In this document: one piece after another, positions 6,244 to 49,804 of the stretch
Numbering within the stretch: the stretch's first letter is position 1
Layout: each line of letters starts with the position of its first letter
The notes under the pieces: model-generated
The model's input: the letters and a program-made list of their open reading frames with translations, nothing else
The model's database searches: none
Told to the model about the DNA's origin: nothing
Source: a virus
Taxonomy: Duplodnaviria; Heunggongvirae; Uroviricota; Caudoviricetes
DNA: 64,000 nucleotides
IMG/VR virus record: IMGVR_UViG_3300031087_000514
Strand: one strand, 5' to 3'
Position numbers and translations under genes: made by a program

Positions 6244-6256
6244 AGGCTGCCTGTGA

Positions 6257-7742: not shown

Positions 7743-8865
7743 TGTCATCACTCTCCACTTTGCCATTCAGGTTCCAGAAAGGCTTTTCAAACTCGGGCTG
7801 GATAAGCTTCCAGATGCTGTCAGAAATCTTCTTCTCAGAAGACTCATTGTAGTGACCACCGCTATGACGGCTGAACAGCATACCTACAAGCTTCTTATCC
7901 TGCTGCTGCACTGCAAAAGCATAGTCCTTCTGAGTGAAGTCATCAGGAAGAGAAGTAATTACGCTGTTATACGTGTTCTCTACTTCCTCACGCAGAGCAG
8001 CGAACTCTGCCAGAAGGTTGTCACGGGTGCGCTCAACGAAGTCAATGAACTCCTCAGGAAGGTCCTTCAACCAGCTGTCAAAGTCGTTACCACTGACAAG
8101 CATCTCCCAGATACGACGTGAAGATGCGCCAGTGATGATGCGATGAAGCTGAACGTAGTCGGCCTGCTTAATCTTCACACGAGTGTCAGTGTTCAGGAAG
8201 TGCACAACCAGACCCTCAGCGTTCTCACGCGGAGTTGCAGCAAGCGCCTCAGCAAGGTTCGTGTACTGGAACTGCTCAACCTTGTTCCACTTCCACTCAT
8301 CAATCTGAGATGCAGGCTCGCTGATACCAGTCTCAATGTTTACACGGGCAATCAGGATAAGGTCATCCATCTCACCATAGTTCAGCACAATACGGTTGGT
8401 CGGGTAGATAATCTCCCAAATGTACGTGTAGCCCTCAGCAGGCTCCCACTGACCGTCATACAGCTCCAAGTAACGCGCTGTTGCATGCTGAGCCTGCTCA
8501 GAAGCAAAGGAACCACGAGTGGAGATGTTCAGCGTGCCATCAGGAGTGCGGTAAGAGATACCCATGCTACCGTCAGCCTTATCGGAGACAACAGCAGGGC
8601 CAGTCAGAAGAGCCTGGTCAACATCAGGCTCGTTGTGGTTGAAGAACTTACCCAGAGGACGGGAAACAATTTCCTTTGTCTCAGCGTCAACAATAAGACC
8701 ACGTGCTGCCAAAGTTGCAGGGTTCCAAGCGCGCTCAAACTGAGCGACCTGTGAGTAGTCGTAAATCTCCAACGGCAGAGTAGGGTGTACCTGCTTATTG
8801 ATGTGCTTTGCTGCGAATGCTGCATCCCACATTTCCTTTGGAGCAATGTCATAGATAGTTGACAT
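7735..8865 (-). CDS. RNA ligase (nucleotidyltransferase superfamily)
   Basis: Motif I KADGS, downstream EGhVhK-like motifs; paralog of 18503..19741. Confidence 0.7.
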   Translation of the reverse strand: MSTIYDIAPKEMWDAAFAAKHINKQVHPTLPLEIYDYSQVAQFERAWNPATLAARGLIVDAETKEIVSRPLGKFFNHNEPDVDQALLTGPAVVSDKADGSMGISYRTPDGTLNISTRGSFASEQAQHATARYLELYDGQWEPAEGYTYIWEIIYPTNRIVLNYGEMDDLILIARVNIETGISEPASQIDEWKWNKVEQFQYTNLAEALAATPRENAEGLVVHFLNTDTRVKIKQADYVQLHRIITGASSRRIWEMLVSGNDFDSWLKDLPEEFIDFVERTRDNLLAEFAALREEVENTYNSVITSLPDDFTQKDYAFAVQQQDKKLVGMLFSRHSGGHYNESSEKKISDSIWKLIQPEFEKPFWNLNGKVESDDNE

Positions 8866-11955: not shown

Positions 11956-12390
11956 ATGGCTGATCTAACCACGTCGAAATATTCTCGTTTTGTCCTCCCT
12001 GCTGTCGCTGAGAACATTGAGAAGCTTCTGAATCTTCGGTTTACTGATGAAGACGAGGATGAGTATTCTCTCGCTGATATGGCTGACCCGGTGAAAGCAT
12101 CAGGGCATTGCTACGATTCAGCATTGCTAGTCCAGCAATCAGGTCTTGTATTTAACGATGGTCCTACTGGCGAGATTCTGAGGGTCATTCCTGAGGGAGA
12201 AAATGACCCTGACGGTTGGTGGCATGCAGCGTTCTCTGTGCCAGACCATATCGGGGAGGACATTGTGTATGATTTCACTATGCGTCAGTTCCATCCTGAC
12301 CTCCCGTTCCCCTATGTAGGGTTCGCTGACCAGTGGGCTAGCACTATTGAAAAATACGCAGGTCATGGCCCTGTTGAGTTTCTTTGGTAG
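11956..12390 (+). CDS. hypothetical protein
   Basis: ORF 144 aa. Confidence 0.5.
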   Translation: MADLTTSKYSRFVLPAVAENIEKLLNLRFTDEDEDEYSLADMADPVKASGHCYDSALLVQQSGLVFNDGPTGEILRVIPEGENDPDGWWHAAFSVPDHIGEDIVYDFTMRQFHPDLPFPYVGFADQWASTIEKYAGHGPVEFLW

Positions 12391-15552: not shown

Positions 15553-16455
15553 ATGTCTCAGCATATTAAAGTGTTACGCGGTGTTCAGGGTTCTGGTAAA
15601 TCAACCGAAGCCTTGAAGTGGGTTCGTCAGGACCCTCTGAATCGCGCCCGCGTAAACCGAGATGACATCCGTTTGACTAACTTCGGCTCATATGACCTTC
15701 CTCAGGAGTTGGAGTATGCTGTTACGAAGATTGAACATCAGCTGATTCGTACACTGTTGAAGGCGAAGAAGAGCGTTGTTGTTGACAACGTGAACTTGCG
15801 TGCAAAGTACGTGAAAGAGTACTTGCTGATTGCTGATGAGTTCAATGTTCCTGTTCTGTATCAGGATTTTCCTGTGGAGCTGGAAGTTGCATTAGCTCGT
15901 AATGCTGCTCGTGAGCGTAAGGTGCCTGAGGATGTTATTGTCAAGACTCATAAGCGATACATCCAGAGCGGTAAGTTCCCTGAGTTCCCTCAGCTGAGTT
16001 ACGACATGTCTGGGCTGTACGTTCCTGATGAGACCCTTCCGAAGGCTATCCTGTTGGATGTTGATGGCACGGCTATGAAGATTGGCAAGCACCGTGGCCC
16101 TTATGATTTCGATAAGGTCATTGATGATGAGCCGAACTTCCCTGTCATTACCACTGTGCAGTCCCTTGTCGCACATGAAGGCTATAAGGTGATTGTCATG
16201 TCAGGCCGTGATGAGATTTGCAAGCAGGATACTCTGTTTTCTTTGGAAGTTGCAGGGGTTCCTGTTGATGAAATCTACATGCGTCCTCAGGGGGACCGCC
16301 GCCCTGATACTGTTATCAAGCGTGAGTTGTTTGATGCGAATGTTCGTAACCGTTTTAACGTGTTGTTCGCACTTGATGACAGAGATGTTGTGATTGACAT
16401 GTATAGAAAAGACTTGGGCTTGACTGTTTTTCAGGTTGATTACGGGAACTTCTAA
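15553..16455 (+). CDS. pnk: polynucleotide 5'-kinase/3'-phosphatase (T4 Pnkp-like)
   Basis: P-loop GVQGSGKST kinase domain plus DVDGT HAD-phosphatase motif; AAGGA RBS. Confidence 0.8.
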   Translation: MSQHIKVLRGVQGSGKSTEALKWVRQDPLNRARVNRDDIRLTNFGSYDLPQELEYAVTKIEHQLIRTLLKAKKSVVVDNVNLRAKYVKEYLLIADEFNVPVLYQDFPVELEVALARNAARERKVPEDVIVKTHKRYIQSGKFPEFPQLSYDMSGLYVPDETLPKAILLDVDGTAMKIGKHRGPYDFDKVIDDEPNFPVITTVQSLVAHEGYKVIVMSGRDEICKQDTLFSLEVAGVPVDEIYMRPQGDRRPDTVIKRELFDANVRNRFNVLFALDDRDVVIDMYRKDLGLTVFQVDYGNF

Positions 16456-17777: not shown

Positions 17778-18444
17778 TTGAAGCAAGGCGTTGAAGGAGT
17801 TCAGGTTTGTTCACATTTGTGAAACCTGAACTCCTTTGCTTTTCCCAGATAGAGTTCAATTGGTTCACCACAGTTTCAGTAGGGATGCGTGTTTTGTTGA
17901 GAAGAAGAAAGTTTGTGTTCACACTACGGTCAGTTCCACCAACACCAGCTTTACCTGCATTGCGCCCAGTTCTTTGTACGAAAAAATCAGAATGAGCTGT
18001 GCAGAAGTAGAATCCTTTCACCCTGTTGACAAGTTCAACAGAGCGAGTATCTTCTTGGTATGACCATAGTTGGAAAAGCTCTTCGCTGTACTTCCACGAT
18101 TTGGTTAAATGTAGATGCGGATGCACCTTGCTTAACAAGGAAGGGCGATCAAAAGTCTTAGGGAGAAGAAAAGCAACTGCGTCAGCGAATTCAGCTGCAT
18201 GTTTGAAGTACTTGATCGTGGTGTGATGATGTGCAAGCTTTGGTGGTTCACCTAAGACTAATGTTTTTGCATCATCTCTGACCCATGTATTTCTGAGAAA
18301 ATCAAGAGGTTCAGGTACCCAAATTTCAGCATCAGGGAAGAAAGGTTTGTCATAACTGACATCAATAATGCGATCATAGTCTGCAATGTGAATACGGCTG
18401 AGACCTTCTTCTGGGTCCCATTGCTCAATGGGTTGTAAGTTCAT
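17731..18444 (-). CDS. hypothetical protein
   Basis: Start set at MNLQPIEQ (AAGGA RBS) rather than the longer ORF. Confidence 0.5.
   Translation of the reverse strand: MNLQPIEQWDPEEGLSRIHIADYDRIIDVSYDKPFFPDAEIWVPEPLDFLRNTWVRDDAKTLVLGEPPKLAHHHTTIKYFKHAAEFADAVAFLLPKTFDRPSLLSKVHPHLHLTKSWKYSEELFQLWSYQEDTRSVELVNRVKGFYFCTAHSDFFVQRTGRNAGKAGVGGTDRSVNTNFLLLNKTRIPTETVVNQLNSIWEKQRSSGFTNVNKPELLQRLASITEQLHSTSYEEQGT
17794..17846. terminator. hairpin terminator
   Basis: 15-bp stem aaggagttcaggttt/aaacctgaactcctt followed by tgcttttcc. Confidence 0.7.
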
Positions 18445-18502
18445 CGTTTCGTATCCTTTTTCACATGCGTTTCGTAACTTCTTCTTCGTTAGATATATCA
18501 GC

Positions 18503-19741
18503 ATGACTACCACTCGTAAACCACCTTATTTGCATGCTGACGGTTCAAATTGTTGGACAAAGCATTGCTCCCGCCGCACCAAGGAAAGCAATGATCGTGC
18601 TTCCTTCTTCAAGCAGGTTGAAAAGACCCCAGCTGCGAAGCTTCCTACCAACCTTCCTCCACTGTCAGCGTTCCAGAAAGCTCACGCTGAGGGCCGTATT
18701 GAGAAGTCTGAACACCCAAATTACCCTTACGTGACCTACAAATACGCGCGTACTACGCAGTTCGCTTCTGACTGGGATGATGTCACACTTGCTTCTCGTG
18801 GAATCATCTTTAACAAGGAAACCGGAGAAGTTGTTGCACGTCCATTTGCAAAGTTCTTCAACTACAATGAACCTTCCGTGCCTACTGATAAACTTCATGG
18901 TCGTGTGAGCGTCACTGACAAACTTGATGGTTCATTAGGTATTGGTTACGTTGATGAGGACGGTAAGTTCAACATTGCTACTTCTGGTAGCTTTATCTCT
19001 GAACAGTCTAAACATGCTACTCGTATATACCAAGAGAAGTATGAAGGTAAGTGGAATCCAAATCCAAACATGACATACATGTGGGAAATCATTTACCCTG
19101 AGAACCGTGTTGTTGTCAACTATGGCGATGAGGACGACTTGCACCTTATCGGTGCTGTCAATAAGCGCACTGGTAAGAGCGTCCCATTAGGTGATATCAA
19201 AGAGTGGAAGTGGAAGCGTGCAGAAGAGTACAAGAATATTTCTTCTCTTGACTCTGTACTTGCCACTCCTGACCGTGAGAACCGTGAAGGTTTCATTGTC
19301 CACTACATTGATACTGACACTCGCGTAAAGTACAAGCATGAGCAGTACTTGAACATTCACCGTGTTGCTACTGGTGTTACTTCTAAGACTATCTGGCGCA
19401 AGATGTCTTTGGGTGAAGATATGGACAGCTGGAAGAGTGGAATTCCTGAGGAGTTCACTGACTTCATTTCTGAACGTCAGAACAAAATTCGCGCAAACTA
19501 CGATAATGAAGTCAGTAAAGTTGTTGCTGACCACGCGAAGTTCAAAGCTTCTATGCCTGCTTCATATGAACGTAAAGACTTCGCTGTTACATTGAAGAAT
19601 TCTTCTGTAGTTCCAGCTGAGAATAAACCATTCATTATGAATTATGAATTCAACGGTAAAGTAGCAACAAACGAGGTGCAAGCTCGTAAAATTTGGGAGC
19701 GCATCAAGCCTACCGATGAGGATACTTTCTGGAACATGTAA
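18503..19741 (+). CDS. RNA ligase paralog with about 60-aa N-terminal extension
   Basis: Motif I KLDGS; homologous to 7735..8865 from residue about 60; GTTAG box at 18488 (N10 spacing) supports the 18503 ATG. Confidence 0.7.
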   Translation: MTTTRKPPYLHADGSNCWTKHCSRRTKESNDRASFFKQVEKTPAAKLPTNLPPLSAFQKAHAEGRIEKSEHPNYPYVTYKYARTTQFASDWDDVTLASRGIIFNKETGEVVARPFAKFFNYNEPSVPTDKLHGRVSVTDKLDGSLGIGYVDEDGKFNIATSGSFISEQSKHATRIYQEKYEGKWNPNPNMTYMWEIIYPENRVVVNYGDEDDLHLIGAVNKRTGKSVPLGDIKEWKWKRAEEYKNISSLDSVLATPDRENREGFIVHYIDTDTRVKYKHEQYLNIHRVATGVTSKTIWRKMSLGEDMDSWKSGIPEEFTDFISERQNKIRANYDNEVSKVVADHAKFKASMPASYERKDFAVTLKNSSVVPAENKPFIMNYEFNGKVATNEVQARKIWERIKPTDEDTFWNM

Positions 19742-20027: not shown

Positions 20028-20133
20028 GTAAGTATTAATCGGCTAATTTTGAAAAAGGGGTCAATTTATCGTCGTTATGACGATAAACATGTTAGAATAT
20101 CCTCAGAAGATAATAACAAAGGACACCTTCCTC

Positions 20134-21087
20134 ATGAAAGTATACAACGACACAGTTGTAATGACTGACTCCCTGATCCGCATGCTTGATAGATATCGCG
20201 CTGAACGAGGTTTTAACGCCTCAGAATGGGTTGAGCGTAAAGTTGCTCTCATCAACGCTTATTTCACGCAGAGTGGCCTGTCAGGGGCTGTTGTAGGGGT
20301 CTCAGGAGGTATTGACTCCGCTGTTGCTCTTTCTCTTGTCGTGAAAGCATCACAGGTGGAAGACAGTCCAATCAAGAAGATTGTTCCGATTCTTCTCCCC
20401 GCATTTTCTTACACAGGAGCTACCCGTCAGAACGAAGCTACAAACCGAGCAGAAAGCCTGTGCACAAAACTTGGACTCGAAGCAGTCATCTTCCATCAGC
20501 TCACACCAATGGCTGAAATGATGAATGCAGAATTAGAGAACGTTTTGGGAATTCGGGCAACCCCTTGGGCAAAAGGCCAGTTAGTTGCATACACCCGAAC
20601 CCCAATCCTGTACAGCACCTGCTCCATTCTCACGGACGCAGGATATCCAGCCTTAGTCATTGGAACTACAAATCTGTCAGAAGGTGGATACTTAGGTTAT
20701 GTCGGTAAAGCCGCTGATGGCATGGTTGACTTGCAGGTAGTGAGTGACTTGTACAAATCAGAAGTGTACCAAGTTGCGGAACTGCTAGAAGTACCAAACC
20801 TCATTATGAAAGCAACACCAACAGGAGACATGTTTGACGGTCGGGATGACGAAACAGTGTTCGGAGCTTCCTACGACTTCGTGGAACTCTACCACCTCTG
20901 GCTGCAAAATGGCTCCGACCCTGAACTTCTGAAGGATGAAACATTCGCAGCAGGAGCGGCGAACCTTGAAAAGATGCACGCTTACAACGGTCATAAATAT
21001 CTGTACGGTACACCATCAGTTCATTTGGATATACTTCGTGCAGACATCCCTGGTGGTTGGAATAACAAAGCTTGGAGCGCTGAATAA
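20134..21087 (+). CDS. NadE-like PP-loop amidotransferase/NAD+ synthetase family protein
   Basis: SGGIDS PP-loop motif; AAAGGA RBS for the 20134 ATG; first gene of a 3-gene overlapping operon. Confidence 0.7.
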   Translation: MKVYNDTVVMTDSLIRMLDRYRAERGFNASEWVERKVALINAYFTQSGLSGAVVGVSGGIDSAVALSLVVKASQVEDSPIKKIVPILLPAFSYTGATRQNEATNRAESLCTKLGLEAVIFHQLTPMAEMMNAELENVLGIRATPWAKGQLVAYTRTPILYSTCSILTDAGYPALVIGTTNLSEGGYLGYVGKAADGMVDLQVVSDLYKSEVYQVAELLEVPNLIMKATPTGDMFDGRDDETVFGASYDFVELYHLWLQNGSDPELLKDETFAAGAANLEKMHAYNGHKYLYGTPSVHLDILRADIPGGWNNKAWSAE

Positions 21088-21827
21088 TGGCGACCAAATT
21101 TGTCAACCAAATTGACTTCACTATTCCAGCTATCCAACATGAAGTTGAAGTGGAGCCACTTCCTGAGTTAGACCGTTCAGCAGTGGTTATCCCTAACCTT
21201 ATCCCAAGCAAAGAACGAGCTCATATTCTCCAAGAACTCAGTAAAGCGAACTGGCAGCCAGTATCCATCACCGGAATGTCAGGTAACTGGAAGCCAGGGG
21301 ATGAAATTGGGTCTTACCGAGCCTCAAACTACACACCAGAATATGCCACTGTATTATGGGACAGAATCAAACACGCTTTCCCAACAGTTCGAGTGTTCAA
21401 TCAGGAAGACAACACTGATTTTGATGACCACGAACTCTGGGAACCTGTTGGAGTTTCTCCACTGCTTCGTTTCATCAAATACGAAGATGGAGGCTGGCTT
21501 GTTGTTCACTATGACGCTCCATATGTTGAAGATGAGGACACCAGGACACTGCAAAGCTTTGTTATTTACTTAGAACAGAGTCCCACGATTACAGGTGGAG
21601 CAACTCGATACCTGCAAGACCCGCAAGCAGGGATTCCTATTGCTCAACGTATTTTAGATGACCAGAAACGTGCAGCAACCGAGGATGAAGTCCGTCTTCG
21701 TTTCATCCCTGAAAATGGAACAGGTGCCATCTTTGACCACAGACTTCTTCACGATGCTGAGCTCGTTCAGGGCGAAGGTCACAAAATTATTATCCGTACC
21801 GACATTATGTACAGGAAAGTCCGATGA
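21087..21827 (+). CDS. 2OG-Fe(II) oxygenase (prolyl-4-hydroxylase-like)
   Basis: HYD ... H facial triad (VVHYDAPY; IFDHRLLHDAE) and RTD Arg; TAATG/ATGA overlaps with neighbours. Confidence 0.6.
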   Translation: MATKFVNQIDFTIPAIQHEVEVEPLPELDRSAVVIPNLIPSKERAHILQELSKANWQPVSITGMSGNWKPGDEIGSYRASNYTPEYATVLWDRIKHAFPTVRVFNQEDNTDFDDHELWEPVGVSPLLRFIKYEDGGWLVVHYDAPYVEDEDTRTLQSFVIYLEQSPTITGGATRYLQDPQAGIPIAQRILDDQKRAATEDEVRLRFIPENGTGAIFDHRLLHDAELVQGEGHKIIIRTDIMYRKVR

Positions 21828-23335
21828 AAACAGACCGCTATTTTGATGCGTTATACGAACGCACTCACAGTGAACAGGATTTAACAACAGCTGGTTGGTT
21901 AGAAAAGCCAACGCAAGTGAACCAGCAGTTACGGTATTACACAACGCCAGTTGATGCTATCCGTGATGCAGGCAAGGAAGAAGTCTCTGTTCTGTTTTAC
22001 CCAGGATGTTTCGCCCCAGTGCATGAAGGTCATATCACTGCAATGCGCTTAGCCAAGGAAGCTGTCGAAGCGACAGGCGAAACAGTGGTCGCTGGTTTCT
22101 TCACACCAGACCATGATGACTACATTATGCGTAAAACGCATGATGAACGTTTCACAGCAGCGAACCGGGTAGAGCTGCTACATGCAGTAACTAAAACAGA
22201 AACATGGATGCAGGTAGACCCTTGGGCTGCTCAGTATGCTCCTACTGATTTGAACTTCACCACATTGTATGATCGTTTGAATCAATACCTCAAACGTTGG
22301 GTACCAAACGTCAAAGTAAAGCTCTACATGGTGTTTGGTGGAGACAACTACATGTTCGCTAATGCTTTCACTGAATATGGGTATGGGGTTTGCGTTCCTC
22401 GTGAAGGAGTTTCTATTGACTGGACCACAGTCCATCCTGATGCTCAAAAGCGTGTAGTTCTCAGTACGAAAAGCAGCACAAATCATTCATCCACAGCGGC
22501 CCGAGCAATGTACTCAAACCCTGCTGAAAAAGGTGGTCGGAGTACGATGGGTAAGCGCTACGTCCTTCGCAACGATTTAGATGCAGCATTTGAGAACACT
22601 ACGGAGTACCCGAATTATCTTATCGCTCAGACTCTGCAGATTCTCTTCCACTCACATCTTCCAGAGGATATCAGTGTCCAAACAGTTGATATTCATGACC
22701 AGTTCCAGCATCATCAGGAAAAAGCTGGGATCATTTCAATGGATTCATTTTGGAAAGCTGAATACAATCTTGACATTACCAGACTCTTCAATGCAGCAGG
22801 TGGCCAGAATCATCCGTTACGGTACATCAACCGCCCAGGTTCCGATGATTTGCAAACACAAATCAAACGAATCCCAGAAGGTGAATATGTACTTGCAGAT
22901 GACGACATCGCTACTGGTGAAACCATGAAATTTGTTTCCAATGTGTTAGGCACTCACGGCATCAGAATTGTGGACACTCTAAGTCTTATCAATGAACTCA
23001 ACACTGACCTGTACGATTTAGCTGACATGAGAGACTATGTGTTAGGGGCAAAGAATGGTGGGTTGACCGTTGTTGCTCCAAACGGTCAAGTGACACGAAT
23101 GCCGTACTTTGCTTCCTATGTGAACGTTTCAGCAAGAACACGTATTCAGCCTAATAAAGCTCGCAGTTTCTCTATTGAAATTTGGAAGCTCAATCGCTCT
23201 TTGTATAAGAACAGTAGCCTTACCGTAGGAGACATTAAAGAGCATCAAGATTTCACCCTCTTTGGGTTCTCAGAGCAGATGCGGCTTGTTGAATTATGTG
23301 AGAAGCATTTAGAGCTGTTAGGTGTGCAAAGCTGA
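21824..23335 (+). CDS. bifunctional nicotinamide/nicotinate mononucleotide adenylyltransferase fused to type I phosphoribosyltransferase-like domain
   Basis: N-terminal FYPGCFAPVHEGH (H/T)xGH nucleotidyltransferase motif; C-terminal YVLADDDIATGETM PRPP-binding loop. Confidence 0.65.
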   Translation: MKTDRYFDALYERTHSEQDLTTAGWLEKPTQVNQQLRYYTTPVDAIRDAGKEEVSVLFYPGCFAPVHEGHITAMRLAKEAVEATGETVVAGFFTPDHDDYIMRKTHDERFTAANRVELLHAVTKTETWMQVDPWAAQYAPTDLNFTTLYDRLNQYLKRWVPNVKVKLYMVFGGDNYMFANAFTEYGYGVCVPREGVSIDWTTVHPDAQKRVVLSTKSSTNHSSTAARAMYSNPAEKGGRSTMGKRYVLRNDLDAAFENTTEYPNYLIAQTLQILFHSHLPEDISVQTVDIHDQFQHHQEKAGIISMDSFWKAEYNLDITRLFNAAGGQNHPLRYINRPGSDDLQTQIKRIPEGEYVLADDDIATGETMKFVSNVLGTHGIRIVDTLSLINELNTDLYDLADMRDYVLGAKNGGLTVVAPNGQVTRMPYFASYVNVSARTRIQPNKARSFSIEIWKLNRSLYKNSSLTVGDIKEHQDFTLFGFSEQMRLVELCEKHLELLGVQS

Positions 23336-34709: not shown

Positions 34710-34764
34710 CCTTTGCTCATGTTCTATATTTATCTACCAGTTAGATATAGAACATGAGCAAAGG
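34710..34764 (+). promoter_or_regulatory. 20-bp perfect inverted repeat sequestering the GTTAG box and start codon of the ART gene
   Basis: cctttgctcatgttctatat / atatagaacatgagcaaagg with 15-nt loop; ATG 34754 lies in the 3' arm; no U-run. Confidence 0.5.
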
Positions 34765-35662
34765 CATTAAACAAGCAGATGGAACACTCTGTTACGCAAA
34801 GAATCCAGATACCTGCAAAAACCATGGATCACCGTCACCTTTTGATCTTTTCGAAGCTGCGATGGCGAAAAAGGATATTGGTGGAAGACTCAATGCGCAA
34901 GTGATGTACAAAAAACACATGCATACCCAATTAGCTGCTCAGTTCCAAAATAACAAGCCTGCCGCAACACAGGTAATTTCGGGTTTTAGGGATTACAGTT
35001 CGCAGTCAGTAGAAGCATTGAAGGAATACAATGAAGAATATCAACAAGCTTCTACTAACTGGTCAGATGACCAAAGAACTGCAATCAAAGACTATACAGG
35101 TTTGAGCTACAAGAATGTAAATGAGTTCCTTCGTAATAAAGAGGAATGGTTAGAAAAAGCTACACCTCAATACAAAGATAAGATGGTAGCACATGTTAAT
35201 GAAGTAATTGAGCAGCTTGATTCTGTCATGGATCAGACATCTAATACGAAATCAAGAACTGTGTATAGAAATGTCTCACAAGACACTACGAAGGCTTTCA
35301 CGTCTTCTGAGGAGTTTGCTCATCGTAATGGCTGGGTTGAAGGTAAAGAGGTAGAATTTCCTTCTTATCTTTCAACATCCTACGACCCACACTACATGGC
35401 TCATCAGCTTGGACAGGATGAAAGCGAGCATACAGATGTTGTATTCGTAATGGAAACGAACAAGGGAGTTCCTGTTGATATGACTGCATTAGATGCCAAA
35501 GGTCACACGTATGTGCAAGACGCAGAGCGGGAGATTCTTCTTCCTCGCAGTATGCGTTTCAGGGTCAGTAAAGTAACTCGCAGTGTTGGTTTTGAACCCT
35601 ATGAAGAAAACAACAATAGTAGAGCTGTTTTCCCTCTGACTGTGTATCTTGAAGAGCTGTAG
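34754..35662 (+). CDS. ADP-ribosyltransferase (R-S-E class), third paralog
   Basis: VYRNVS, YLSTSY, QDAEREILLPR motifs; N-term CYAKNPDTCKNHG; GTTAG box 34740-34753. Confidence 0.7.
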   Translation: MSKGIKQADGTLCYAKNPDTCKNHGSPSPFDLFEAAMAKKDIGGRLNAQVMYKKHMHTQLAAQFQNNKPAATQVISGFRDYSSQSVEALKEYNEEYQQASTNWSDDQRTAIKDYTGLSYKNVNEFLRNKEEWLEKATPQYKDKMVAHVNEVIEQLDSVMDQTSNTKSRTVYRNVSQDTTKAFTSSEEFAHRNGWVEGKEVEFPSYLSTSYDPHYMAHQLGQDESEHTDVVFVMETNKGVPVDMTALDAKGHTYVQDAEREILLPRSMRFRVSKVTRSVGFEPYEENNNSRAVFPLTVYLEEL

Positions 35663-35676
35663 ACATCTCCTTTAAT

Positions 35677-35730
35677 CAAAAGCGGGTTGACTACTCACAT
35701 AAGTAGTCAACCCGCTTTTCTATATTATTT
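35677..35730. terminator. bidirectional terminator
   Basis: 18-bp stem aaaagcgggttgactact/agtagtcaacccgctttt. Confidence 0.8.
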
Positions 35731-36548
35731 TAGCAATCTCCGTATAAAGAGAATGGAGAAGTAATACTACTGACAGTACCGTTATCTCCGTGGACAAGAG
35801 TGCCAGCGATGTTTCCACTGGCTGGGTCAGTCTTTCCATAAGATGGGTCCGTTGTGACCTCTGCTACAAGTGACTGGTAGGTGTGGCCGTTATAACTTAC
35901 AGGGTCGCTTTGAACTGCATTTGGAGCTTTCTGCAAAGCTACTTTCCAGGTGTTACCCACCTGGATTTCGTTTGGTGTTTCAACAACACGTTCATAGTTC
36001 TGGTTAGGTTTCGCCGTGGACACGTAGAAGCTTTTTGCTGTTGCAGGGTCTTTGGTTCCTGAGGTGAATGTGATACTCATGTTATCCCATGCCCAGGTGT
36101 TGAACTGATATGAGCACATTTCCTCAGTTGAGTAATGTTTTGTATCAGGTTGTTTGCCGTACAGCTCGTTGAGTGCTGTGACTGCCGGTGCTGGGCTTTG
36201 ATTGTATGGGAAGGACTTCAACACTGTTCCGTTGAGATTTTCAAAGCGAAGAGTATCAGCCCCAATGACAACCACTGTGGTCTTCACTGTTGGTTTTGGA
36301 GTGACAGTTGGCGTTGCTGGCTTTGTTGTGGCAGGAGTACTAGGCGATGTCGTTGGTTTAGGAGTAGAGCTCGGCGTAAAAGTTTCAGTCGGGGTGGGTT
36401 TAGGCTGCGTAGTCTGTGAGGGAGCAGGTTTAGATGTGCTCGGAGCCTTCGTCGCAGAAGGAGTAGGATTAGGGCTGGAAGAACATCCAGCAAGGAGGAT
36501 TGAACTCAAGGCAACTACTGTGATTGCTATGAAAGGTACGCGTTTCAC
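35730..36548 (-). CDS. lipoprotein with Pro/Thr-rich linker and C-terminal globular domain
   Basis: GTG start giving MKRVPFIAITVVALSSILLAGCSS (lipobox LAGC) with GAGAAAGAAG RBS; long PT-rich tract. Confidence 0.55.
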   Translation of the reverse strand: MKRVPFIAITVVALSSILLAGCSSSPNPTPSATKAPSTSKPAPSQTTQPKPTPTETFTPSSTPKPTTSPSTPATTKPATPTVTPKPTVKTTVVVIGADTLRFENLNGTVLKSFPYNQSPAPAVTALNELYGKQPDTKHYSTEEMCSYQFNTWAWDNMSITFTSGTKDPATAKSFYVSTAKPNQNYERVVETPNEIQVGNTWKVALQKAPNAVQSDPVSYNGHTYQSLVAEVTTDPSYGKTDPASGNIAGTLVHGDNGTVSSITSPFSLYGDC

Positions 36549-36807
36549 CGTTGATACTTCTTTCTCATGTTTGGGCTTAAACGGGGTTATCGGTGGTACA
36601 AACACAGGAGAAACACGTCGTTATCGTTTCGTTGCGGAACATAATACTCTTGGATGATTCCATATTTTTCTTGTAAGAATTGCGCTTTTCGAGACATTTC
36701 TTAAGGTCGTTTTATAGAAATGTCTTACTGCGGGGTGAGACAGTACAATATTTTAAAATACGGGAATGACTGGTATCGTTGTATTGTGTAAACGTTAGAG
36801 ATGGTAC

Positions 36808-37851
36808 ATGCCAAAATTAATCATCCTCAGAGGAATCCCTGCGTCAGGGAAATCAACATACGCTCAAAAATGGGTTATGGAAGACCCTGCAAACCGTGTC
36901 CGCATTAACCGCGATGATATTCGTGAAGCGCTCACAGGTGATGCAACAAACCATAGTCGTGAGAAAGAAGTAACACAGTACCAGGAAGCGCTCATTGAGC
37001 GTGCTTTGAAAGAAGGTAAAGATGTCGCTTCTGACAACACAAATTTGAACACCAAATTCTTACCTGATACGATCAAGAAAGCGCAAGCTGTCGGCGCTAC
37101 AGTTGAGCACAAAGACTTCCCTATTACAGTGGATGAAGCTCTTCGTCGTAATGCTGGACGTGAACGCAAAGTACCAGAAGATGTCATTCGCAGAATGTAC
37201 AAGAGTTTAGGCCCTAAGGGTGAGTTCCCAGTGTTCCCTGGCTCATACCCTACGAAACCTTTTACTGCGCCAAACAGCCGTAAGCCAGCTGTCTGCTTCG
37301 ACATGGACGGCACATTGAACGATGTGTCAGGTGTTCGTCACTTCATTGACCCTCAGCCAGGCGCTAAGAAGCGTTTCAAAGACTTTGACTCATTCCACCG
37401 CATGTCTGAGTTTGAACCAGCTCATGAAGCTGTTTTGCAGTTAGCTAAAGATGCTCATGAATCAGGCTATGCTGTCCTCATCACCACTGCTCGTAGCGAA
37501 CCATATCGTGAGACAACACAGAAGTGGTTGGATGACCATAACGTGCCATACGAGAACATTTTCATGCGCGGTGAGAAAGACTATCGTAAAGACTACGATG
37601 TCAAGAAGGACATGTTCACTGAAATTGACAAACACTATGATGTTGTTCGTTGTGTTGATGACAACCCACAGGCTATTCAAGCGTGGAAGGAAAACAACAT
37701 TGCGGTGACAACAGTGCCGTTCAACTATGACGGACGTGAAACTCCTGTCGTCATCAACAACCCATTCCGTTCGGGTGTATGCATCCGTTGCGGCAAACCA
37801 TTCAAAGGTGAAGGCACATTAGGTCCAACCTGCCGAACAAAAGCTGCGTAG
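36808..37851 (+). CDS. polynucleotide kinase/3'-phosphatase paralog with C-terminal Cys-rich tail
   Basis: GIPASGKST P-loop, CFDMDGT HAD motif, C-terminal CIRCGKPF...GPTC; GTTAG box 36794-36807. Confidence 0.8.
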   Translation: MPKLIILRGIPASGKSTYAQKWVMEDPANRVRINRDDIREALTGDATNHSREKEVTQYQEALIERALKEGKDVASDNTNLNTKFLPDTIKKAQAVGATVEHKDFPITVDEALRRNAGRERKVPEDVIRRMYKSLGPKGEFPVFPGSYPTKPFTAPNSRKPAVCFDMDGTLNDVSGVRHFIDPQPGAKKRFKDFDSFHRMSEFEPAHEAVLQLAKDAHESGYAVLITTARSEPYRETTQKWLDDHNVPYENIFMRGEKDYRKDYDVKKDMFTEIDKHYDVVRCVDDNPQAIQAWKENNIAVTTVPFNYDGRETPVVINNPFRSGVCIRCGKPFKGEGTLGPTCRTKAA

Positions 37852-38200: not shown

Positions 38201-38361
38201 CTTCTCAGTATACCATCGATGAACCAACAAATCCATACTGAGAAGTTCCGATTACGACCGATACCGTTTGCATGGAAAATAAACGCGAATCATATTTTGA
38301 ACACGACTCTTCCTTGCTGCCTGATCGTAAACAGTCGGATAGGGTTGTGTTTTCCACTGTT

Positions 38362-38433
38362 ATGATTCAAGGGTTGATTGTAATAGCGATCATTGTCATC
38401 GTTGCTGGTGCTGCATACATGACAATGGATTGA
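38362..38433 (+). CDS. 23-aa hydrophobic peptide (MIQGLIVIAIIVIVAGAAYMTMD)
   Basis: Single TM-length ORF in an otherwise noncoding 500-bp region; no convincing RBS. Confidence 0.25.
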   Translation: MIQGLIVIAIIVIVAGAAYMTMD

Positions 38434-38477
38434 TTTCCTACTTGCATGCTTAGAATTCTTATGCTATGCTATCTCTT

Positions 38478-38605
38478 GTCGCCAAAGTTCAATCAGGCCG
38501 AACACTCAGTTAGAAAATGCAGGTTGCAAACTGTTCTTTTCTAATCGTCGGAAAGCGCGCTGACGAAAAAATGAGAGGTTGTAGGTTCAAATCCTGCTGG
38601 CGGAA
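38478..38605 (+). ncRNA. tRNA-like small RNA candidate (non-canonical); promoter TTGCAT-17-TATGCT at 38442-38470
   Basis: T-arm GTAGG-TTCAAAT-CCTGC at 38581-38597; acceptor-like pairing gtcgcca (38478-84) / tggcgga (38598-604); D-arm-like gttc..gaac; middle region too long for a standard anticodon arm; terminator follows. Confidence 0.3.
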
Positions 38606-38615
38606 CGAATAAAAG

Positions 38616-38667
38616 AATAGCCTCAGAACCCAGTAAAGTAAAGGGTTCTGAGGCTATTCTTTGTTGC
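38616..38667 (+). terminator. rho-independent terminator
   Basis: 16-bp perfect stem aatagcctcagaaccc/gggttctgaggctatt followed by ctttgttg. Confidence 0.8.
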
Positions 38668-38719
38668 TAAATCAGTGCAGATATGCTATAATTGGTAGTA
38701 ACACAACACACATAACAAA

Positions 38720-38758
38720 AATAAATCAGGCTGAATATCGCAGCCTGATTTATTTTTA
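38720..38758. terminator. bidirectional terminator
   Basis: 11-bp stem aaatcaggctg/cagcctgattt flanked by A/T runs on both sides. Confidence 0.7.
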
Positions 38759-38766
38759 AATCATCC

Positions 38767-47732: not shown

Positions 47733-48265
47733 ACCTCTCCATATAAGAGATGGTTCACTCGCAAACCCTGCGTTGAGGTACCCTCCGCCAGCTCATTGAC
47801 GAAAGTCACAGTTTGCTGGGTGAAGCTATCCCGTTGTTTAACGACAAGTATGCAGATGTCTTAGATGGAATTTTCAGAAAGCAGAAATATCAGAAAGCAA
47901 CAGCATTCTTTGAGTTCTATGGGGAGAACAGCTTCGCAGGATTCCATGAAGATGAGCCTCACGATGTGACACTTTTCGATGTACATATTTATAAGCACGG
48001 TCTGATGTCACCTCAGGAGTTCAACAAGGTCTTCAAGCATGTTGACACCGCGCCCTTACTTTTTCAAGGGAAGCCAACTGCTGAGTTTGTTGAATCTGTT
48101 CAGGAAGGCACCTTAGAAGGCATGACCTTTGAGGGTGTTGTCTGCAAAGCAGGTTATGATAATCGGAACAAGTTAGCTTCATTCAAAATCAAGAATAAAG
48201 CTTGGTTAACTCGCTTGAAAGATAAGTGTGGGAATGATGAGAAAATGTTCACCGCGTTAGCATAA
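47733..48265 (+). pseudogene. decayed nucleotidyltransferase ligase: out-of-frame motif I remnant (IRDGSL, 47733-47753) plus ORF carrying motifs IIIa/IV/V (TLFDVHI, EGVVCK, KIKNKAW)
   Basis: No in-frame start or lysine nucleophile; TTG-only ORF 47813-48265. Confidence 0.4.
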
Positions 48266-48364: not shown

Positions 48365-49804
48365 ATGTGTAGAAATAAAGAAGAAGGCGGTCGCCGCTGT
48401 ACCGATCACAATGCATTCGGACAGCAGATCAGAAACCTTCAAGCGAAAAAGCAGTATCATGCAAAATATGGTCACACTGACAAAGTAACTTCAGTTGTTG
48501 AAGAAATGGATGCTCTTCGTGACAAGAAGCAGCATCTTTTAGAAGATGGAGGAACTGTTCTTCCATACACGATGCCATTGACCCCGAATGCGGAAAGAGT
48601 CCTCAACCAGCTCCGTGAAGACGGGTATGAGCCTTATGTTGTTGGAGGAAGTGTTCGTGACGCTCTTCTCGGATTAGACTCCAAGGATGTTGACATTGAA
48701 GTCTACAAAGCTACACCAGAAGAAGTCATTGCTTCCCTTCGTAAAATTGGTCAAGTGGATGAAGTGGGTAAATCATTTGGTGTCTTGAAAATCCAAATTG
48801 GGGGAGAAGACTTTGATGTCTCTCTTCCTCGTAAAGACTCTAAAATTGGTGACGGACACAGAGGGTTCACTGTTGAAGTAACTCCTGAACTCTCACTCCA
48901 TGAAGCAACTGCTCGTCGCGATTTCACCATCAATGCTCTCATGTATGACAACGAAATGGGATTCATCGTTGACAAGCACGGTGGTTTGAAAGATTTGGAG
49001 AAAGGTCATCTCCGTCATGTTTCAGAAGCTTTTGATGAGGACCCGCTCCGTGTTCTTCGTGGAGTACAGATGGCTTCACGTTTTGATATGGAACTCCACC
49101 CAGACACAGTAGTCAAAGCTCAAACACTGAAAGACCAGTTCGGTGATTTGGCTCGAGAGCGCGTCCAAACTGAATTCCAGAAGCTGTACCAGAAAGGTAA
49201 AGCTCCTCACAAAGCGTTCAAGCTTTTGCAGGATACAGGTTGGGACGCAAACTTCTCTGGTGTTGCAGAAGTGAATGGAAAATCTCTGCGTCGTAATCTG
49301 CAAAGAACTCAGGAGTTGACTGACCAAGGAGTCATTCCTAAGGAGAAAGGTGCATACATCCTTTCAGCGAACATTGCATCTCATCTGAATGATAAAGATG
49401 CAAGAAACTTCTTGACATACACTACTGTTGGTGATGATTTGAAGAACAAGTCATACAACCTTTCTCGTGTTGAGCTACCAGTGAAGCAAGGAAAAGCTTC
49501 TTTGCGAGCATGGGCAAGAGGCATGCCTCGCCACGTCACCATTCAAGACTGGGTTCTACTCAGTAAAGCCAAAGGTGACAAGGAAGTAGCAGAGCGTATT
49601 GAACGCAAAGCAGAAAAACTTGGCATTTTGCACAGTCCTGAATCTGACATGGTATCAGGAGATGATGTACTTGCTGCTTTCCCTGAACGTAAACCAGGTC
49701 GTTGGATGAAAGAAGCCTTAGATGCAACGCGTAACGCTCAGTACTCTGACGTGTTCCGTGACCGCGAAAAAGGTATTGCCTGGGTCAAAGCAAACATTAG
49801 CTGA
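48365..49804 (+). CDS. cca: tRNA nucleotidyltransferase (CCA-adding enzyme) with about 60-aa N-terminal C-x9-C-x2-H extension
   Basis: VVGGSVRDALLGLDSKDVDIEV head motif; N-term MCRNKEEGGRRCTDHN; AGAAGGAAA RBS. Confidence 0.8.
   Translation: MCRNKEEGGRRCTDHNAFGQQIRNLQAKKQYHAKYGHTDKVTSVVEEMDALRDKKQHLLEDGGTVLPYTMPLTPNAERVLNQLREDGYEPYVVGGSVRDALLGLDSKDVDIEVYKATPEEVIASLRKIGQVDEVGKSFGVLKIQIGGEDFDVSLPRKDSKIGDGHRGFTVEVTPELSLHEATARRDFTINALMYDNEMGFIVDKHGGLKDLEKGHLRHVSEAFDEDPLRVLRGVQMASRFDMELHPDTVVKAQTLKDQFGDLARERVQTEFQKLYQKGKAPHKAFKLLQDTGWDANFSGVAEVNGKSLRRNLQRTQELTDQGVIPKEKGAYILSANIASHLNDKDARNFLTYTTVGDDLKNKSYNLSRVELPVKQGKASLRAWARGMPRHVTIQDWVLLSKAKGDKEVAERIERKAEKLGILHSPESDMVSGDDVLAAFPERKPGRWMKEALDATRNAQYSDVFRDREKGIAWVKANIS

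What the first reader, a model, noticed from the sequence alone, without database searches (positions are those of the whole stretch)
38441..38668. Promoter - tRNA-like RNA - terminator unit that is not a canonical tRNA
TTGCAT-17-TATGCT, then a 128-nt stretch with a textbook T-arm (GTAGG-TTCAAAT-CCTGC), a 6/7-bp acceptor-like pairing and a D-arm-like helix, but an over-long middle section. It is immediately followed by a 16-bp-stem terminator. It could be an intron- or insert-containing or degenerate tRNA, a tRNA-like regulatory RNA or decoy for tRNA-targeting nucleases, or an attP-type tRNA 3' fragment.
Basis: seen in the sequence. Interest (0 to 1): 0.5.

Follow-up and report, generated by a model that had tools for sequence, protein, structure and literature searches.

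The report
Phage tRNA-like RNA with branched insert
A giant, uncultivated phage carries a small, separately transcribed gene for an RNA that has the body of a tRNA, but a conserved 61-base, two-hairpin branch replaces the anticodon loop, so it most likely mimics a tRNA instead of decoding, and no RNA family in Rfam or ARAGORN covers it.

Summary
Window 38478-38605(+) folds into a tRNA frame: a 6-bp acceptor stem plus a G.A mismatch, a D arm with GG, and a canonical T arm. A 4-bp anticodon-stem remnant opens into a three-way junction instead of an anticodon loop. The unit has a weak but conserved promoter and a 20-bp terminator.

ARAGORN finds nothing. The Rfam tRNA model scores 26.5 bits, below its cut-off of 29.

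The fold is real. Between two diverged lineages of related giant metagenomic contigs (0.5-0.88 Mb, phage-like genes), 15 of 38 pairs show compensatory double changes. The two 8-nt loops (GUUGCAAA and AAAGCGCG, the latter with one variant), an A6 junction strand and the T loop stay fixed. In a third lineage the surrounding DNA is 85.6% identical, while the promoter and RNA are 95-100% identical.

No sensible anticodon can be recovered. Relaxed ARAGORN gives only "Phe-AAA".

My best reading is a non-decoding tRNA mimic or tRNA scaffold whose working end is the insert. Its role is unproven. The main rival is an intron-bearing tRNA.

Uncultivated phage contigs hold 27 sequence clusters with the same G-GUUGCAAA-C hairpin 35-65 nt upstream of a T arm. 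In 31 of 34 cases ARAGORN does not call that T arm as a tRNA. This suggests a wider, undescribed class.

The parts
38442..38470 (+). Promoter-like site: TTGCAT (-35), 17-nt spacer, TATGCT (-10). The predicted start lies at or next to the first base of the RNA (about 38477-38478).
   Evidence: Read directly from the sequence. It matches 8 of 12 consensus positions, so the scan did not list it. The same -35 hexamer and spacing occur in L011. The segment is 97% identical in L132, against 85.6% regionally. Function is inferred, not shown.
38478..38605 (+). tRNA-like RNA gene, whole unit (128 nt).
   Evidence: Rfam tRNA 26.5 bits, model positions 1-71. The MFE fold is a cloverleaf with a branched anticodon arm. 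The covariance model recovers orthologues in L011, L014, L016, L017, L132, L133 and L134. No ORF of 40 aa or more overlaps it on either strand.
38479..38484 (+). Acceptor stem, 5' strand (pairs with 38598-38603). G38478 faces A38604 as a conserved G.A mismatch.
   Evidence: 6 pairs, 2 of them with double compensatory changes and 1 with a one-sided change. The G.A mismatch is present in all three lineages.
38487..38503 (+). D arm: 4-bp stem GUUC/GAAC, with a 9-nt loop that contains GG.
   Evidence: The loop sequence varies between lineages (AAUCAGGCC, AUUCAGGUA, AGUUCGGUA), but GG is kept.
38505..38508 (+). Remnant of the anticodon stem (CUCA), paired with UGAG at 38572-38575. It opens into the three-way junction.
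   Evidence: 3 of its 4 pairs show double compensatory changes (CUCA/UGAG against UCUA/UAGA). In addition, a strain variant changes U-A to U-G.
38510..38544 (+). Long arm of the insert: an 8-bp helix (38510-38517 with 38537-38544) capped by a 4-bp hairpin (38519-38534). The hairpin's 8-nt loop GUUGCAAA lies at 38523-38530.
   Evidence: Double compensatory changes occur in 5 of 8 pairs of the helix and 3 of 4 pairs of the hairpin. The loop and its closing G-C pair are invariant. The same G-GUUGCAAA-C hairpin occurs in 27 sequence clusters that include the window's two lineages, the rest being phage contigs.
38545..38566 (+). Second hairpin of the insert: 7-bp stem with 8-nt loop AAAGCGCG (38552-38559).
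   Evidence: The loop is identical in all lineages except one variant, AAAGCGCA, in L134.
38567..38571 (+). A-rich junction strand. Together with A38566 it forms an invariant run of six A.
   Evidence: Identical in all seven aligned sequences.
38581..38597 (+). T arm: GUAGG-UUCAAAU-CCUGC.
   Evidence: 2 of its 5 pairs show double compensatory changes, and the loop is invariant.
38598..38605 (+). Acceptor stem, 3' strand (UGGCGG), then A72 and position 73. No CCA is encoded.
   Evidence: Position 73 is A in the window, G in L132 and A in L011.
38612..38662 (+). Intrinsic terminator: perfect 20-bp stem, 11-nt loop, then a U-rich tail.
   Evidence: -34.7 kcal/mol. The stem is kept in relatives, while the loop is found in both orientations. 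The scan missed it because it accepts only loops of 3-8 nt.

Best explanation
**What it is (well supported).** It is a functional, separately transcribed non-coding RNA of a giant phage-like element. The RNA keeps a tRNA frame: acceptor stem, D arm with GG, 5-nt variable loop and canonical T arm. From position 31 to 39 the anticodon loop is replaced by a 61-62-nt three-way junction. That junction displays two invariant 8-nt loops (GUUGCAAA and AAAGCGCG) and an A6 junction strand.

**How it most likely works (inferred).** It does not decode. The tRNA frame serves as a handle. It lets the transcript be trimmed and stabilised like a tRNA: RNase P at the 5' end, 3' trimming, and CCA addition by the phage's own CCA-adding enzyme. 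It also lets the RNA be recognised by proteins that read tRNA shape. The insert is the working end. Its first loop is the tRNA-Cys anticodon loop UUGCAAA with one extra 5' G, held at the tip of a long arm. I think the most likely role is as a tRNA mimic, either a decoy or a cofactor, for an anticodon-loop-directed factor in the phage-host conflict over tRNA damage and repair. The conserved G1.A72 mismatch would keep the RNA away from EF-Tu and the ribosome.

**Shown:** the structure, the conservation, the lack of a usable anticodon, and the gene neighbourhood.

**Inferred:** expression, processing, the binding partner, and the decoy or cofactor role.
For: 1. **Structure.** The cloverleaf plus three-way junction is the MFE fold. 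It is also the RNAalifold consensus.
2. **Covariation.** 97.4% of cells pair. 15 of 38 pairs have double changes, spread over five of the seven helices, against 2-3 in the slid controls and 0/500 shuffles for the covariation score.
3. **Selection.** Against the L132 lineage the 2.7-kb region is 85.6% identical, but the promoter and RNA are 95-100% identical. All four differences lie in the D loop or at position 73.
4. **Invariant single strands.** While the stems diverge, both insert loops, the A6 run and the T loop stay identical. The only exception is one G-to-A variant in L134.
5. **No decoding end.** There is no 7-nt anticodon loop. ARAGORN in intron mode finds nothing at default settings. 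When relaxed it gives only tRNA-Phe(AAA). From general knowledge, that anticodon is not used.
6. **Not an elongator tRNA.** The 1-72 mismatch is kept in every lineage, while the neighbouring pairs covary. Position 73 is free to vary.
7. **A parallel case.** In L110 the frame is clearly tRNA-Asn-like, yet the Asn anticodon loop is gone and cannot be restored by removing any one stretch. So tRNA frames are being reused as carriers for the same hairpin.
8. **Context.** The 64-kb window holds two Rnl1-type RNA ligases, two kinase-phosphatase PNKPs (one ends 627 nt upstream of the RNA), an Rnl2-like ORF and a CCA-adding enzyme.
Against: - There are no expression, end-mapping or binding data.
- Only three lineages carry the RNA, and only one deep split separates them. 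The 15 compensatory pairs therefore come from one evolutionary contrast.
- The link to repair enzymes is not general. None of the IMG/VR loci with the GUUGCAAA hairpin has a PNKP, Rnl1 or CCA-enzyme homologue within the DNA fetched. Related phages keep PNKP but lack the RNA.
- No anticodon nuclease that targets tRNA-Cys is known in this system.
- The loop has 8 nt, not 7, so the mimicry is imperfect.
- The two insert loops could serve splicing instead of an effector role.
Confidence: 0.45

Rival explanations
1. Intron-bearing tRNA. In this reading the 53-55-nt insert is a protein-spliced intron sitting right after U33. An endonuclease cuts at both borders. The phage PNKP heals the ends and Rnl1 seals them, as these enzymes do for anticodon-loop breaks at 33/34. 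The product would be a decoding tRNA.
For: - Relaxed ARAGORN places an intron of 54 nt (window) and 55 nt (L011) at the same spot, and returns the same anticodon in both lineages.
- 'UU' follows the stem remnant in both lineages. With the G before the A run, the joined loop would read UUGAAAAA, one A longer than the tRNA-Phe loop UUGAAAA.
- Two PNKP and two Rnl1 genes lie in the same 64 kb.
- Megaphage tRNAs with 'enigmatic introns' have been reported (PMC6784885).
- From general knowledge, T4 Pnkp and Rnl1 can replace the yeast tRNA-splicing ligase.
Against: - The only 7-nt solution is anticodon AAA. The GAA solution needs an 8-nt loop.
- The 31-39 pair would be a G.A or A.A mismatch.
- G1.A72 is unsuited to an elongator tRNA. 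Position 73 varies between A and G, which argues against a fixed charging identity.
- ARAGORN finds nothing at its default threshold.
- No intron-less allele exists. Relatives lack the whole gene.
- There is no bulge-helix-bulge motif.
- In the parallel case L110, the Asn anticodon is not recoverable.
Confidence: 0.22
2. Self-associating structural RNA. Both insert loops carry self-complementary cores: UUGCAA in the first, and GCGC in the second (GCGCGC if the closing C is counted). These could form loop-loop 'kissing' contacts between copies. The result would be dimers or larger assemblies, in the manner of the HIV-1 dimerisation loop or the phi29 packaging RNA, which also has a three-way junction and two interacting loops.
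For: - Palindromic cores sit in both invariant loops.
- The second hairpin of the L110 element has a different loop, UGCUAGC, that again contains a 6-nt palindrome, GCUAGC.
- The architecture is a three-way junction with two exposed loops.
Against: - UUGCAA is palindromic simply because it is U33 + GCA + A37, so it need not mean anything.
- The L134 variant AAAGCGCA breaks the 6-nt palindrome.
- Other members of the hairpin class have no palindromic second loop.
- There is no Rfam match to packaging RNA or any other multimeric RNA.
- No tool here can test kissing complexes.
Confidence: 0.08
3. A cis-acting or processing element instead of a trans-acting RNA. It could be the structured 3' end of the upstream small membrane-protein mRNA (38272-38433), or a tRNA-shaped processing signal that separates two transcripts.
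For: - No terminator lies between the small ORF and the RNA.
- The small ORF is conserved next to it.
- In several phage contigs the GUUGCAAA hairpin sits just upstream of an ordinary tRNA, where a processing role is plausible.
Against: - In L046 the small ORF and the downstream CA-rich unit are kept without the tRNA-like RNA, so the ORF does not need it.
- The RNA has its own conserved promoter-like site.
- Invariant loops in a three-way junction are more than a processing handle would need.
Confidence: 0.07
4. A decaying tRNA pseudogene, an attP remnant, or a miniature tmRNA.
For: - The tRNA score is below threshold.
- The Rfam tmRNA model touches the ends of the L011 copy at 15.5 bits.
- The loop contains GCA AAC, the usual start of tmRNA tags.
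Against: - The conservation peak and the compensatory changes exclude decay.
- The full frame and the unit's own promoter and terminator argue against an att fragment.
- There is no G3.U70.
- No stop codon lies in the GCA frame before the T arm.
- There is no ARAGORN tmRNA call, and the tmRNA score is far below its cut-off of 47.
Confidence: 0.03

Closest known systems
Canonical tRNA (Rfam RF00005)
   Same: Acceptor stem, D arm with GG, 5-nt variable loop and a T arm with UUCAAAU. The Rfam model aligns over positions 1-71.
   Different: The score is below the gathering cut-off. There is no 7-nt anticodon loop: 61 nt forming a three-way junction sit in its place. Position 1-72 is a G.A mismatch, no CCA is encoded, and ARAGORN does not call it.
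Megaphage (Lak) tRNAs with 'enigmatic introns' (Devoto et al. 2019, PMC6784885)
   Same: Over-long tRNA genes in very large phages, with an insert in the anticodon region whose removal mechanism is unknown.
   Different: The Lak examples keep a recognisable anticodon ahead of an intron at the 37/38 position, and intron-less alleles exist. Here no natural anticodon is left and no insert-less allele was found. The insert loops are also invariant across lineages.
Phage T4 species 1 RNA (rnaC)
   Same: A small stable phage RNA of 139 nt with a true T arm and an acceptor-like terminal helix around a large non-tRNA middle. Its function is still unknown (general knowledge).
   Different: There is no sequence similarity and no GUUGCAAA hairpin. 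rnaC lies inside the T4 tRNA cluster and is co-transcribed with it. This RNA stands alone with its own promoter and terminator.
Bacterial Y RNA YrlA (partner of Rsr/Ro in RNA-repair operons)
   Same: A tRNA-mimicking non-coding RNA encoded beside RNA-repair enzymes. It is a modular RNA in which one end imitates tRNA and the other binds a protein (general knowledge; PMC7824862).
   Different: In YrlA the RNA termini lie at the anticodon side and the acceptor end is closed by a loop. Here the order is the normal tRNA order, with free acceptor ends. No Rfam Y RNA hit was found, and no Ro/TROVE gene was seen among the ORFs I annotated.
tmRNA tRNA-like domain
   Same: An acceptor stem plus T arm that flank a large non-tRNA middle. 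The loop contains GCA AAC.
   Different: It is 128 nt, not about 360 nt. It has a full D arm, no G3.U70, no pseudoknots and no tag ORF with a stop. The Rfam tmRNA model scores only 15.5 bits against a cut-off of 47.
Engineered 'tRNA scaffold' RNAs (an RNA of interest inserted in the anticodon stem of a tRNA)
   Same: The design is identical. A structured RNA replaces the anticodon loop, while the tRNA body supplies folding, processing and nuclease resistance (general knowledge).
   Different: That is a laboratory device. This would be a natural counterpart, and the function of its cargo is unknown.

Membership tests
tRNA (RF00005) | Score at or above the Rfam gathering cut-off (29 bits) | tested here: not met
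   26.5 bits, E = 0.002. Nothing reaches gathering level.
tRNA (RF00005) | Detected by a dedicated tRNA finder | tested here: not met
   ARAGORN finds 0 genes in the window. It also finds none in intron mode at the default threshold.
tRNA (RF00005) | Seven-nucleotide anticodon loop with U33 on a 5-bp stem | tested here: not met
   A 4-bp stem leads into a 61-nt three-way junction.
tRNA (RF00005) | Acceptor, D and T arms with a T loop of UUCRANY type and GG in the D loop | tested here: met
   The helices are kept by compensatory changes.
Intron-containing tRNA | Removing one contiguous insert yields a tRNA with a natural anticodon loop, the same in orthologues | tested here: inconclusive
   Relaxed ARAGORN gives Phe(AAA) in both lineages, with introns of 54 and 55 nt. 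The solution is consistent between lineages, but the anticodon is unnatural and the 31-39 pair is mismatched.
Intron-containing tRNA | An insert-less allele in relatives, or spliced RNA | tested here: not met
   Relatives either carry the whole unit or lack it entirely. RNA data are not available.
tmRNA | G3.U70, a tag reading frame with a stop, and an Rfam or ARAGORN tmRNA call | tested here: not met
   Position 3-70 is C3-G70. The GCA frame runs into the T arm without a stop. The tmRNA model gives 15.5 bits against 47. ARAGORN makes no call.
Y RNA / YrlA | Permuted tRNA-like module with a Ro-binding stem, and a neighbouring Ro (TROVE) gene | tested here: not met
   The arms follow the normal tRNA order with free acceptor ends. 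There is no Rfam hit. No TROVE domain occurs among the 30 window ORFs scanned. Not every ORF was scanned.
Phage 'G-GUUGCAAA-C hairpin plus orphan T arm' RNAs (class proposed here) | Hairpin with the 8-nt loop GUUGCAAA closed by G-C, 35-65 nt upstream of a T arm that no tRNA finder assigns to a tRNA | tested here: met
   Window loop at 38523-38530, 52 nt before the T arm. The class comprises 51 distinct contexts. In 35 of them the stem is at least 3 bp in the 8-nt register, against 7 in the 7-nt register. 31 of 34 have an orphan T arm. Common descent with the window RNA is not shown.

The most novel reading that the evidence does not exclude
The window RNA would be one member of a widespread, undescribed class of phage RNAs. 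In this class a fixed hairpin, G-GUUGCAAA-C with an 8-nt loop, is grafted onto tRNA frames of different origin. It sits either inside the anticodon arm or directly at the 5' end. This would be a natural 'tRNA scaffold' system whose cargo hairpin is the functional unit. The cargo might act as a decoy or adaptor for a tRNA-directed enzyme, or as a self-pairing module.
Probability: 0.35. Interest if true: 0.75.

Novelty: new variant of a known kind. Interest (0 to 1): 0.58.

Why it matters
Large phages carry many tRNA genes and tRNA-repair enzymes, and much phage-host conflict is fought over tRNA anticodon loops. Over-long 'tRNAs' in megaphages have been noted but never explained, and the T4 species 1 RNA has lacked a function for fifty years (general knowledge).

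This locus gives a clean, small, covariation-supported example. In it the tRNA body is kept and the decoding end is replaced by a conserved branched domain. That makes the question testable: does the RNA get spliced, charged, cut, or bound?

If the recurring GUUGCAAA hairpin defines a class, standard tRNA finders and Rfam miss a whole group of phage RNAs. A natural tRNA scaffold would also interest RNA engineers.

Tried and rejected
**Searches for relatives of the RNA**
- BLAST of the locus against 50,697 deposited phage genomes found no match. A joined-exon query gave only weak hits to tRNAs of mixed identity (Trp, Val, Ile), so no parent isotype can be named.
- A strict three-block DNA pattern found nothing in IMG/VR. 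In JGI metagenomes it found only the two lineages already known.
- A relaxed pattern gave one IMG/VR hit, which lies inside a coding region. In one genome per bacterial and archaeal species it gave 27 hits. The covariance model rejected all of them, and none is in a hairpin context.
- A two-block insert-only pattern found nothing. The second-loop pattern hit only ordinary tRNAs.

**Synteny route**
- Six loci around PNKP homologues of 61-69% identity lack the RNA, even with the model's filters off.

**Alternative identities**
- tmRNA: tag frames from the loop GCA are short, unrelated and often lack a stop. The one true tmRNA found (L107) merely has the hairpin in its promoter region.
- Hammerhead: CUGACGA at 38560-38566 resembles the CUGANGA core, but it is base-paired and not conserved in L011.
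- Repair-gene co-occurrence: there are no PNKP, Rnl1, Rnl2 or CCA-enzyme homologues in the 176 IMG/VR loci tested, with or without the hairpin.

**Other dead ends**
- A literature search for the motif strings returned nothing relevant.
- BLAST of class members against cultured phages found no match beyond tRNA-frame similarity.
Full report
**1. What is in the sequence**

- TTGCAT (38442-38447), 17 nt, TATGCT (38465-38470), then 7 nt before G38478.
- From 38478 to 38605 the Rfam tRNA model aligns over its whole length (positions 1-71). It places 61 nt where the 7-nt anticodon loop belongs. The score is 26.5 bits against a gathering cut-off of 29, E = 0.002.
- ARAGORN finds no tRNA or tmRNA anywhere in the 64-kb window. 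No Rfam family reaches its gathering score.
- The minimum-energy fold of the 129-nt stretch is a cloverleaf whose anticodon arm branches (-36.5 kcal/mol). The energy alone is not remarkable: z = -1.78. The T-loop pattern occurs once, against 0.23 expected.
- The downstream hairpin is a perfect 20-bp stem with an 11-nt loop (38612-38662, -34.7 kcal/mol).
- No ORF of 40 aa or more overlaps the RNA on either strand.

**2. Where it comes from**

The exact PNKP protein encoded 627 nt upstream is found only on metagenomic contigs, some as long as 0.88 Mb, all with the same gene order. Most genes have no Pfam family. Those that do are typical of very large phages:
- DnaK, ClpB-like and GyrB-like proteins, and a DNA methylase.
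- Three ADP-ribosyltransferases (Alt-like in PHROGs), NAD synthase and an NMNAT-like protein.
- A tail-type NlpC/P60 protein and a phage-only family, phrog_2319.

The window is rich in RNA end-healing and end-sealing genes:
- Two Rnl1-type ligases (7735-8865, minus strand; 18428-19741).
- Two kinase-phosphatase PNKPs (15553-16455; 36808-37851).
- An Rnl2-like ORF (47813-48265).
- A CCA-adding enzyme (48365-49804).

I treat the host element as a giant phage. That is an inference from gene content, not a demonstration.

**3. Is the structure real?**

- Strain-level copies are nearly identical. One changes U-A to U-G in the stem remnant, and one adds a U in a bulge.
- A relative whose PNKP is 74% identical (L011, with L014, L016, L017 and L134) carries the RNA at the same place. 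Rfam first flagged it there through the ends of its tmRNA model.
- A covariance model built from the window sequence recovers these copies at 69-77 bits.
- On the model-guided alignment, 97.4% of cells are standard pairs. 15 of 38 pairs have changes on both sides, spread over the acceptor stem, the stem remnant, the long arm, the first hairpin and the T stem. Sliding the partners by 1-3 columns leaves 2-3 such pairs. No shuffle reaches the observed covariation score.
- RNAalifold, run without my structure, returns the same helices: 36 pairs, 15 of them compensatory.
- Caveat: all of this rests on one deep split between two lineages.

**4. Is it under selection?**

A third lineage (L132, L133) has a neighbouring membrane protein that is 84% identical. 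Its RNA is identical at 125 of 129 positions. Three of the differences fall in the D loop and one at position 73. Across 2.7 kb the two genomes are 85.6% identical. The promoter and RNA segments are 95-100% identical, and the flanking genes are 65-90%. Across all lineages the following are invariant:
- the GUUGCAAA loop with its closing G-C pair;
- the AAAGCGCG loop (one variant, AAAGCGCA, in L134);
- the run of six A;
- the T loop;
- the GG of the D loop;
- the G1.A72 mismatch.

This is the pattern of a functional RNA whose single-stranded parts do the work.

**5. Distribution**

- Six loci around more distant PNKP homologues (61-69% identity) lack the RNA, even with the filters off.
- One of them, L046, keeps the small tail-anchored membrane protein gene and the CA-rich unit that flank the RNA in the window, with only 150 nt between them and nothing tRNA-like. 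The whole unit is therefore present or absent as a block. I saw no insert-less version.
- Pattern scans of JGI metagenomes, IMG/VR and one genome per prokaryotic species found no further copies of the full architecture.

**6. Can it decode?**

- The stem remnant has 4 pairs, and the 31-39 position is G.A or A.A.
- ARAGORN with introns allowed finds nothing at its default threshold. At a relaxed threshold it proposes the same solution in both lineages: an intron of 54 or 55 nt after U33, and anticodon AAA.
- That consistency is worth noting. If the preceding G is included, the loop would read UUGAAAAA, one A longer than a tRNA-Phe loop.
- However, AAA is not a natural anticodon, and the alternative needs an 8-nt loop. 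The 1-72 mismatch is unsuited to an elongator tRNA, and position 73 varies between A and G.
- The bases that would be the anticodon under the other reading (AGA in the window, GAU in L011) differ between lineages. They covary with the opposite strand of the long arm, so pairing constrains them, not decoding.
- I therefore rank 'non-decoding tRNA mimic' above 'spliced tRNA', but I cannot exclude the latter. The presence of two PNKP and Rnl1 pairs nearby keeps it alive. From general knowledge, these enzymes repair breaks at exactly the 33/34 position in T4 and can carry out tRNA splicing in yeast.

**7. A wider class**

Searching IMG/VR for GGTTGCAAAC followed 35-65 nt later by a T-arm motif gave 60 loci.
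- In 51 distinct contexts, the bases flanking the motif pair in the register of an 8-nt loop: at least 3 bp in 35 cases and at least 4 bp in 24. The 7-nt register reaches 3 bp in only 7 cases.
- Control motifs in the same DNA show no such stems. The same octamer in bacterial chance hits shows none either.
- Among 34 hairpin-positive cases, the downstream T arm belongs to no ARAGORN tRNA in 31. Half lie inside phage tRNA arrays and half are solitary.
- They fall into 27 BLAST clusters that share little beyond the hairpin and the T arm. That count includes the window and L011.
- Two cases (L110, L120) pass the Rfam tRNA cut-off with a 40-50-nt insert at the anticodon position.
- L110 has the same topology as the window RNA: stem remnant, GUUGCAAA hairpin, second hairpin, single-stranded return. 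Its frame is clearly tRNA-Asn-like, yet the Asn anticodon loop cannot be restored.
- In other clusters the hairpin abuts the 5' end of a tRNA-like gene.
- With closing pairs other than G-C, the enrichment is much weaker. The conserved unit is therefore the 10-mer G-GUUGCAAA-C.
- Rfam has no family at these sites. No cultured phage matches them.
- The search was built around the motif. It shows that the hairpin-plus-T-arm association is real, not that these RNAs share ancestry with the window RNA.

**8. Mechanism**

What is shown: a tRNA-shaped frame, a conserved branched insert with invariant loops, no usable anticodon, and a neighbourhood of RNA-repair genes.

What I infer: the frame gives tRNA-like processing, stability and recognition, and the insert is the effector. 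The first loop equals the tRNA-Cys anticodon loop plus a 5' G. That fits a mimic of an anticodon loop offered to some loop-directed factor, but the partner is unknown.

The repair-gene link is local, not general. A self-pairing role of the loops is possible, because both have palindromic cores and so does the second loop of L110. The L134 variant weakens that idea.

**9. Comparison with known systems**

- The closest published description is the set of 'enigmatic introns' in Lak megaphage tRNAs (PMC6784885). Those keep an anticodon and have intron-less alleles.
- The closest classical analogue is T4 species 1 RNA. It has a T arm and a terminal helix around a non-tRNA middle, and its function is unknown.
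- Y RNAs and tmRNA share the idea of a tRNA-like module joined to another domain, but both fail their defining tests here.
- The design matches the laboratory 'tRNA scaffold'.

**10. Verdict**

It is a conserved, structured, stand-alone tRNA-like RNA, not covered by Rfam or ARAGORN, in a giant phage. It has a plausible link to a broader hairpin-bearing class. Its function is unresolved. I rate it a new variant of a known kind (phage tRNA-like or insert-bearing tRNA genes), with interest 0.58.

Noticed in passing
window 38664-38760 (+): A second tiny transcription unit lies directly after the terminator. It has a strong promoter-like site, TTGCTA-17-TATAAT with an upstream TG (10 of 12 matches). 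That is followed by a CA-rich stretch (AACACAACACACAUAACAAAAA) and a 17-18-bp hairpin that also ends the convergent membrane-protein gene. It is 98% identical in L132. Recognisable copies occur in L011 and in L046, which lacks the tRNA-like RNA. It is probably a small RNA in its own right.
   Followed up: partly
window 38632-38642; L008 3085-3095; L011 about 12340-12354 against L014 and L016: The loop of the terminator hairpin occurs in both orientations among close strains, while the stem is unchanged. The window has AGTAAAGTAAA and L008 has its reverse complement. The same is seen in the L011 lineage. This is a hairpin-loop inversion polymorphism.
   Followed up: partly
window 7735-8865(-), 15553-16455, 18428-19741, 36808-37851, 47813-48265, 48365-49804: RNA-repair genes are unusually dense in 42 kb: two Rnl1-type ligases, two PNKPs, an Rnl2-like ORF and a CCA-adding enzyme. 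The window also has three ADP-ribosyltransferases (602-1630, 1661-2692, 34754-35662), NAD synthase (20077-21087) and an NMNAT-like gene (21824-23335).
   Followed up: partly
contigs behind L002, L003, L011, L012: The element is assembled as contigs of 510-883 kb made mostly of genes without known families. If these contigs are single phage genomes, they would exceed the largest published phage genome that I know of (about 735 kb). I did not check completeness, circularity or structural genes.
   Followed up: no
IMG/VR loci L070-L129, e.g. L110 6747-6864(-), L120 7702-7824(+), L080 about 6250-6365(-), L087 3947-4058(-), L106, L121, L085/L101 groups: A hairpin with the fixed sequence G-GUUGCAAA-C (8-nt loop) lies 35-65 nt upstream of a T arm that ARAGORN does not assign to any tRNA. 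It occurs in 27 sequence clusters (25 besides the window's two lineages). About half are inside phage tRNA arrays. Neither Rfam nor ARAGORN covers these sites.
   Followed up: partly
window 35730-36605 (-): The 291-aa ORF next to PNKP has no Pfam or PHROG family. It is intact, shortened (272 aa) or split into two ORFs of about 129 aa in otherwise near-identical strains. It is therefore variable or decaying.
   Followed up: no
window 38272-38433 (+): A small protein (53 aa) with a conserved N-terminal SYFEHD motif and a C-terminal membrane helix lies just upstream of the RNA. Homologues occur in L011 (60 aa) and L046 (59 aa).
   Followed up: partly
L113 8247-8702 (-): A GOLLD RNA (223 bits) sits inside the tRNA array of an IMG/VR jumbo-phage contig. 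That contig also carries a GUUGCAAA-hairpin element.
   Followed up: no
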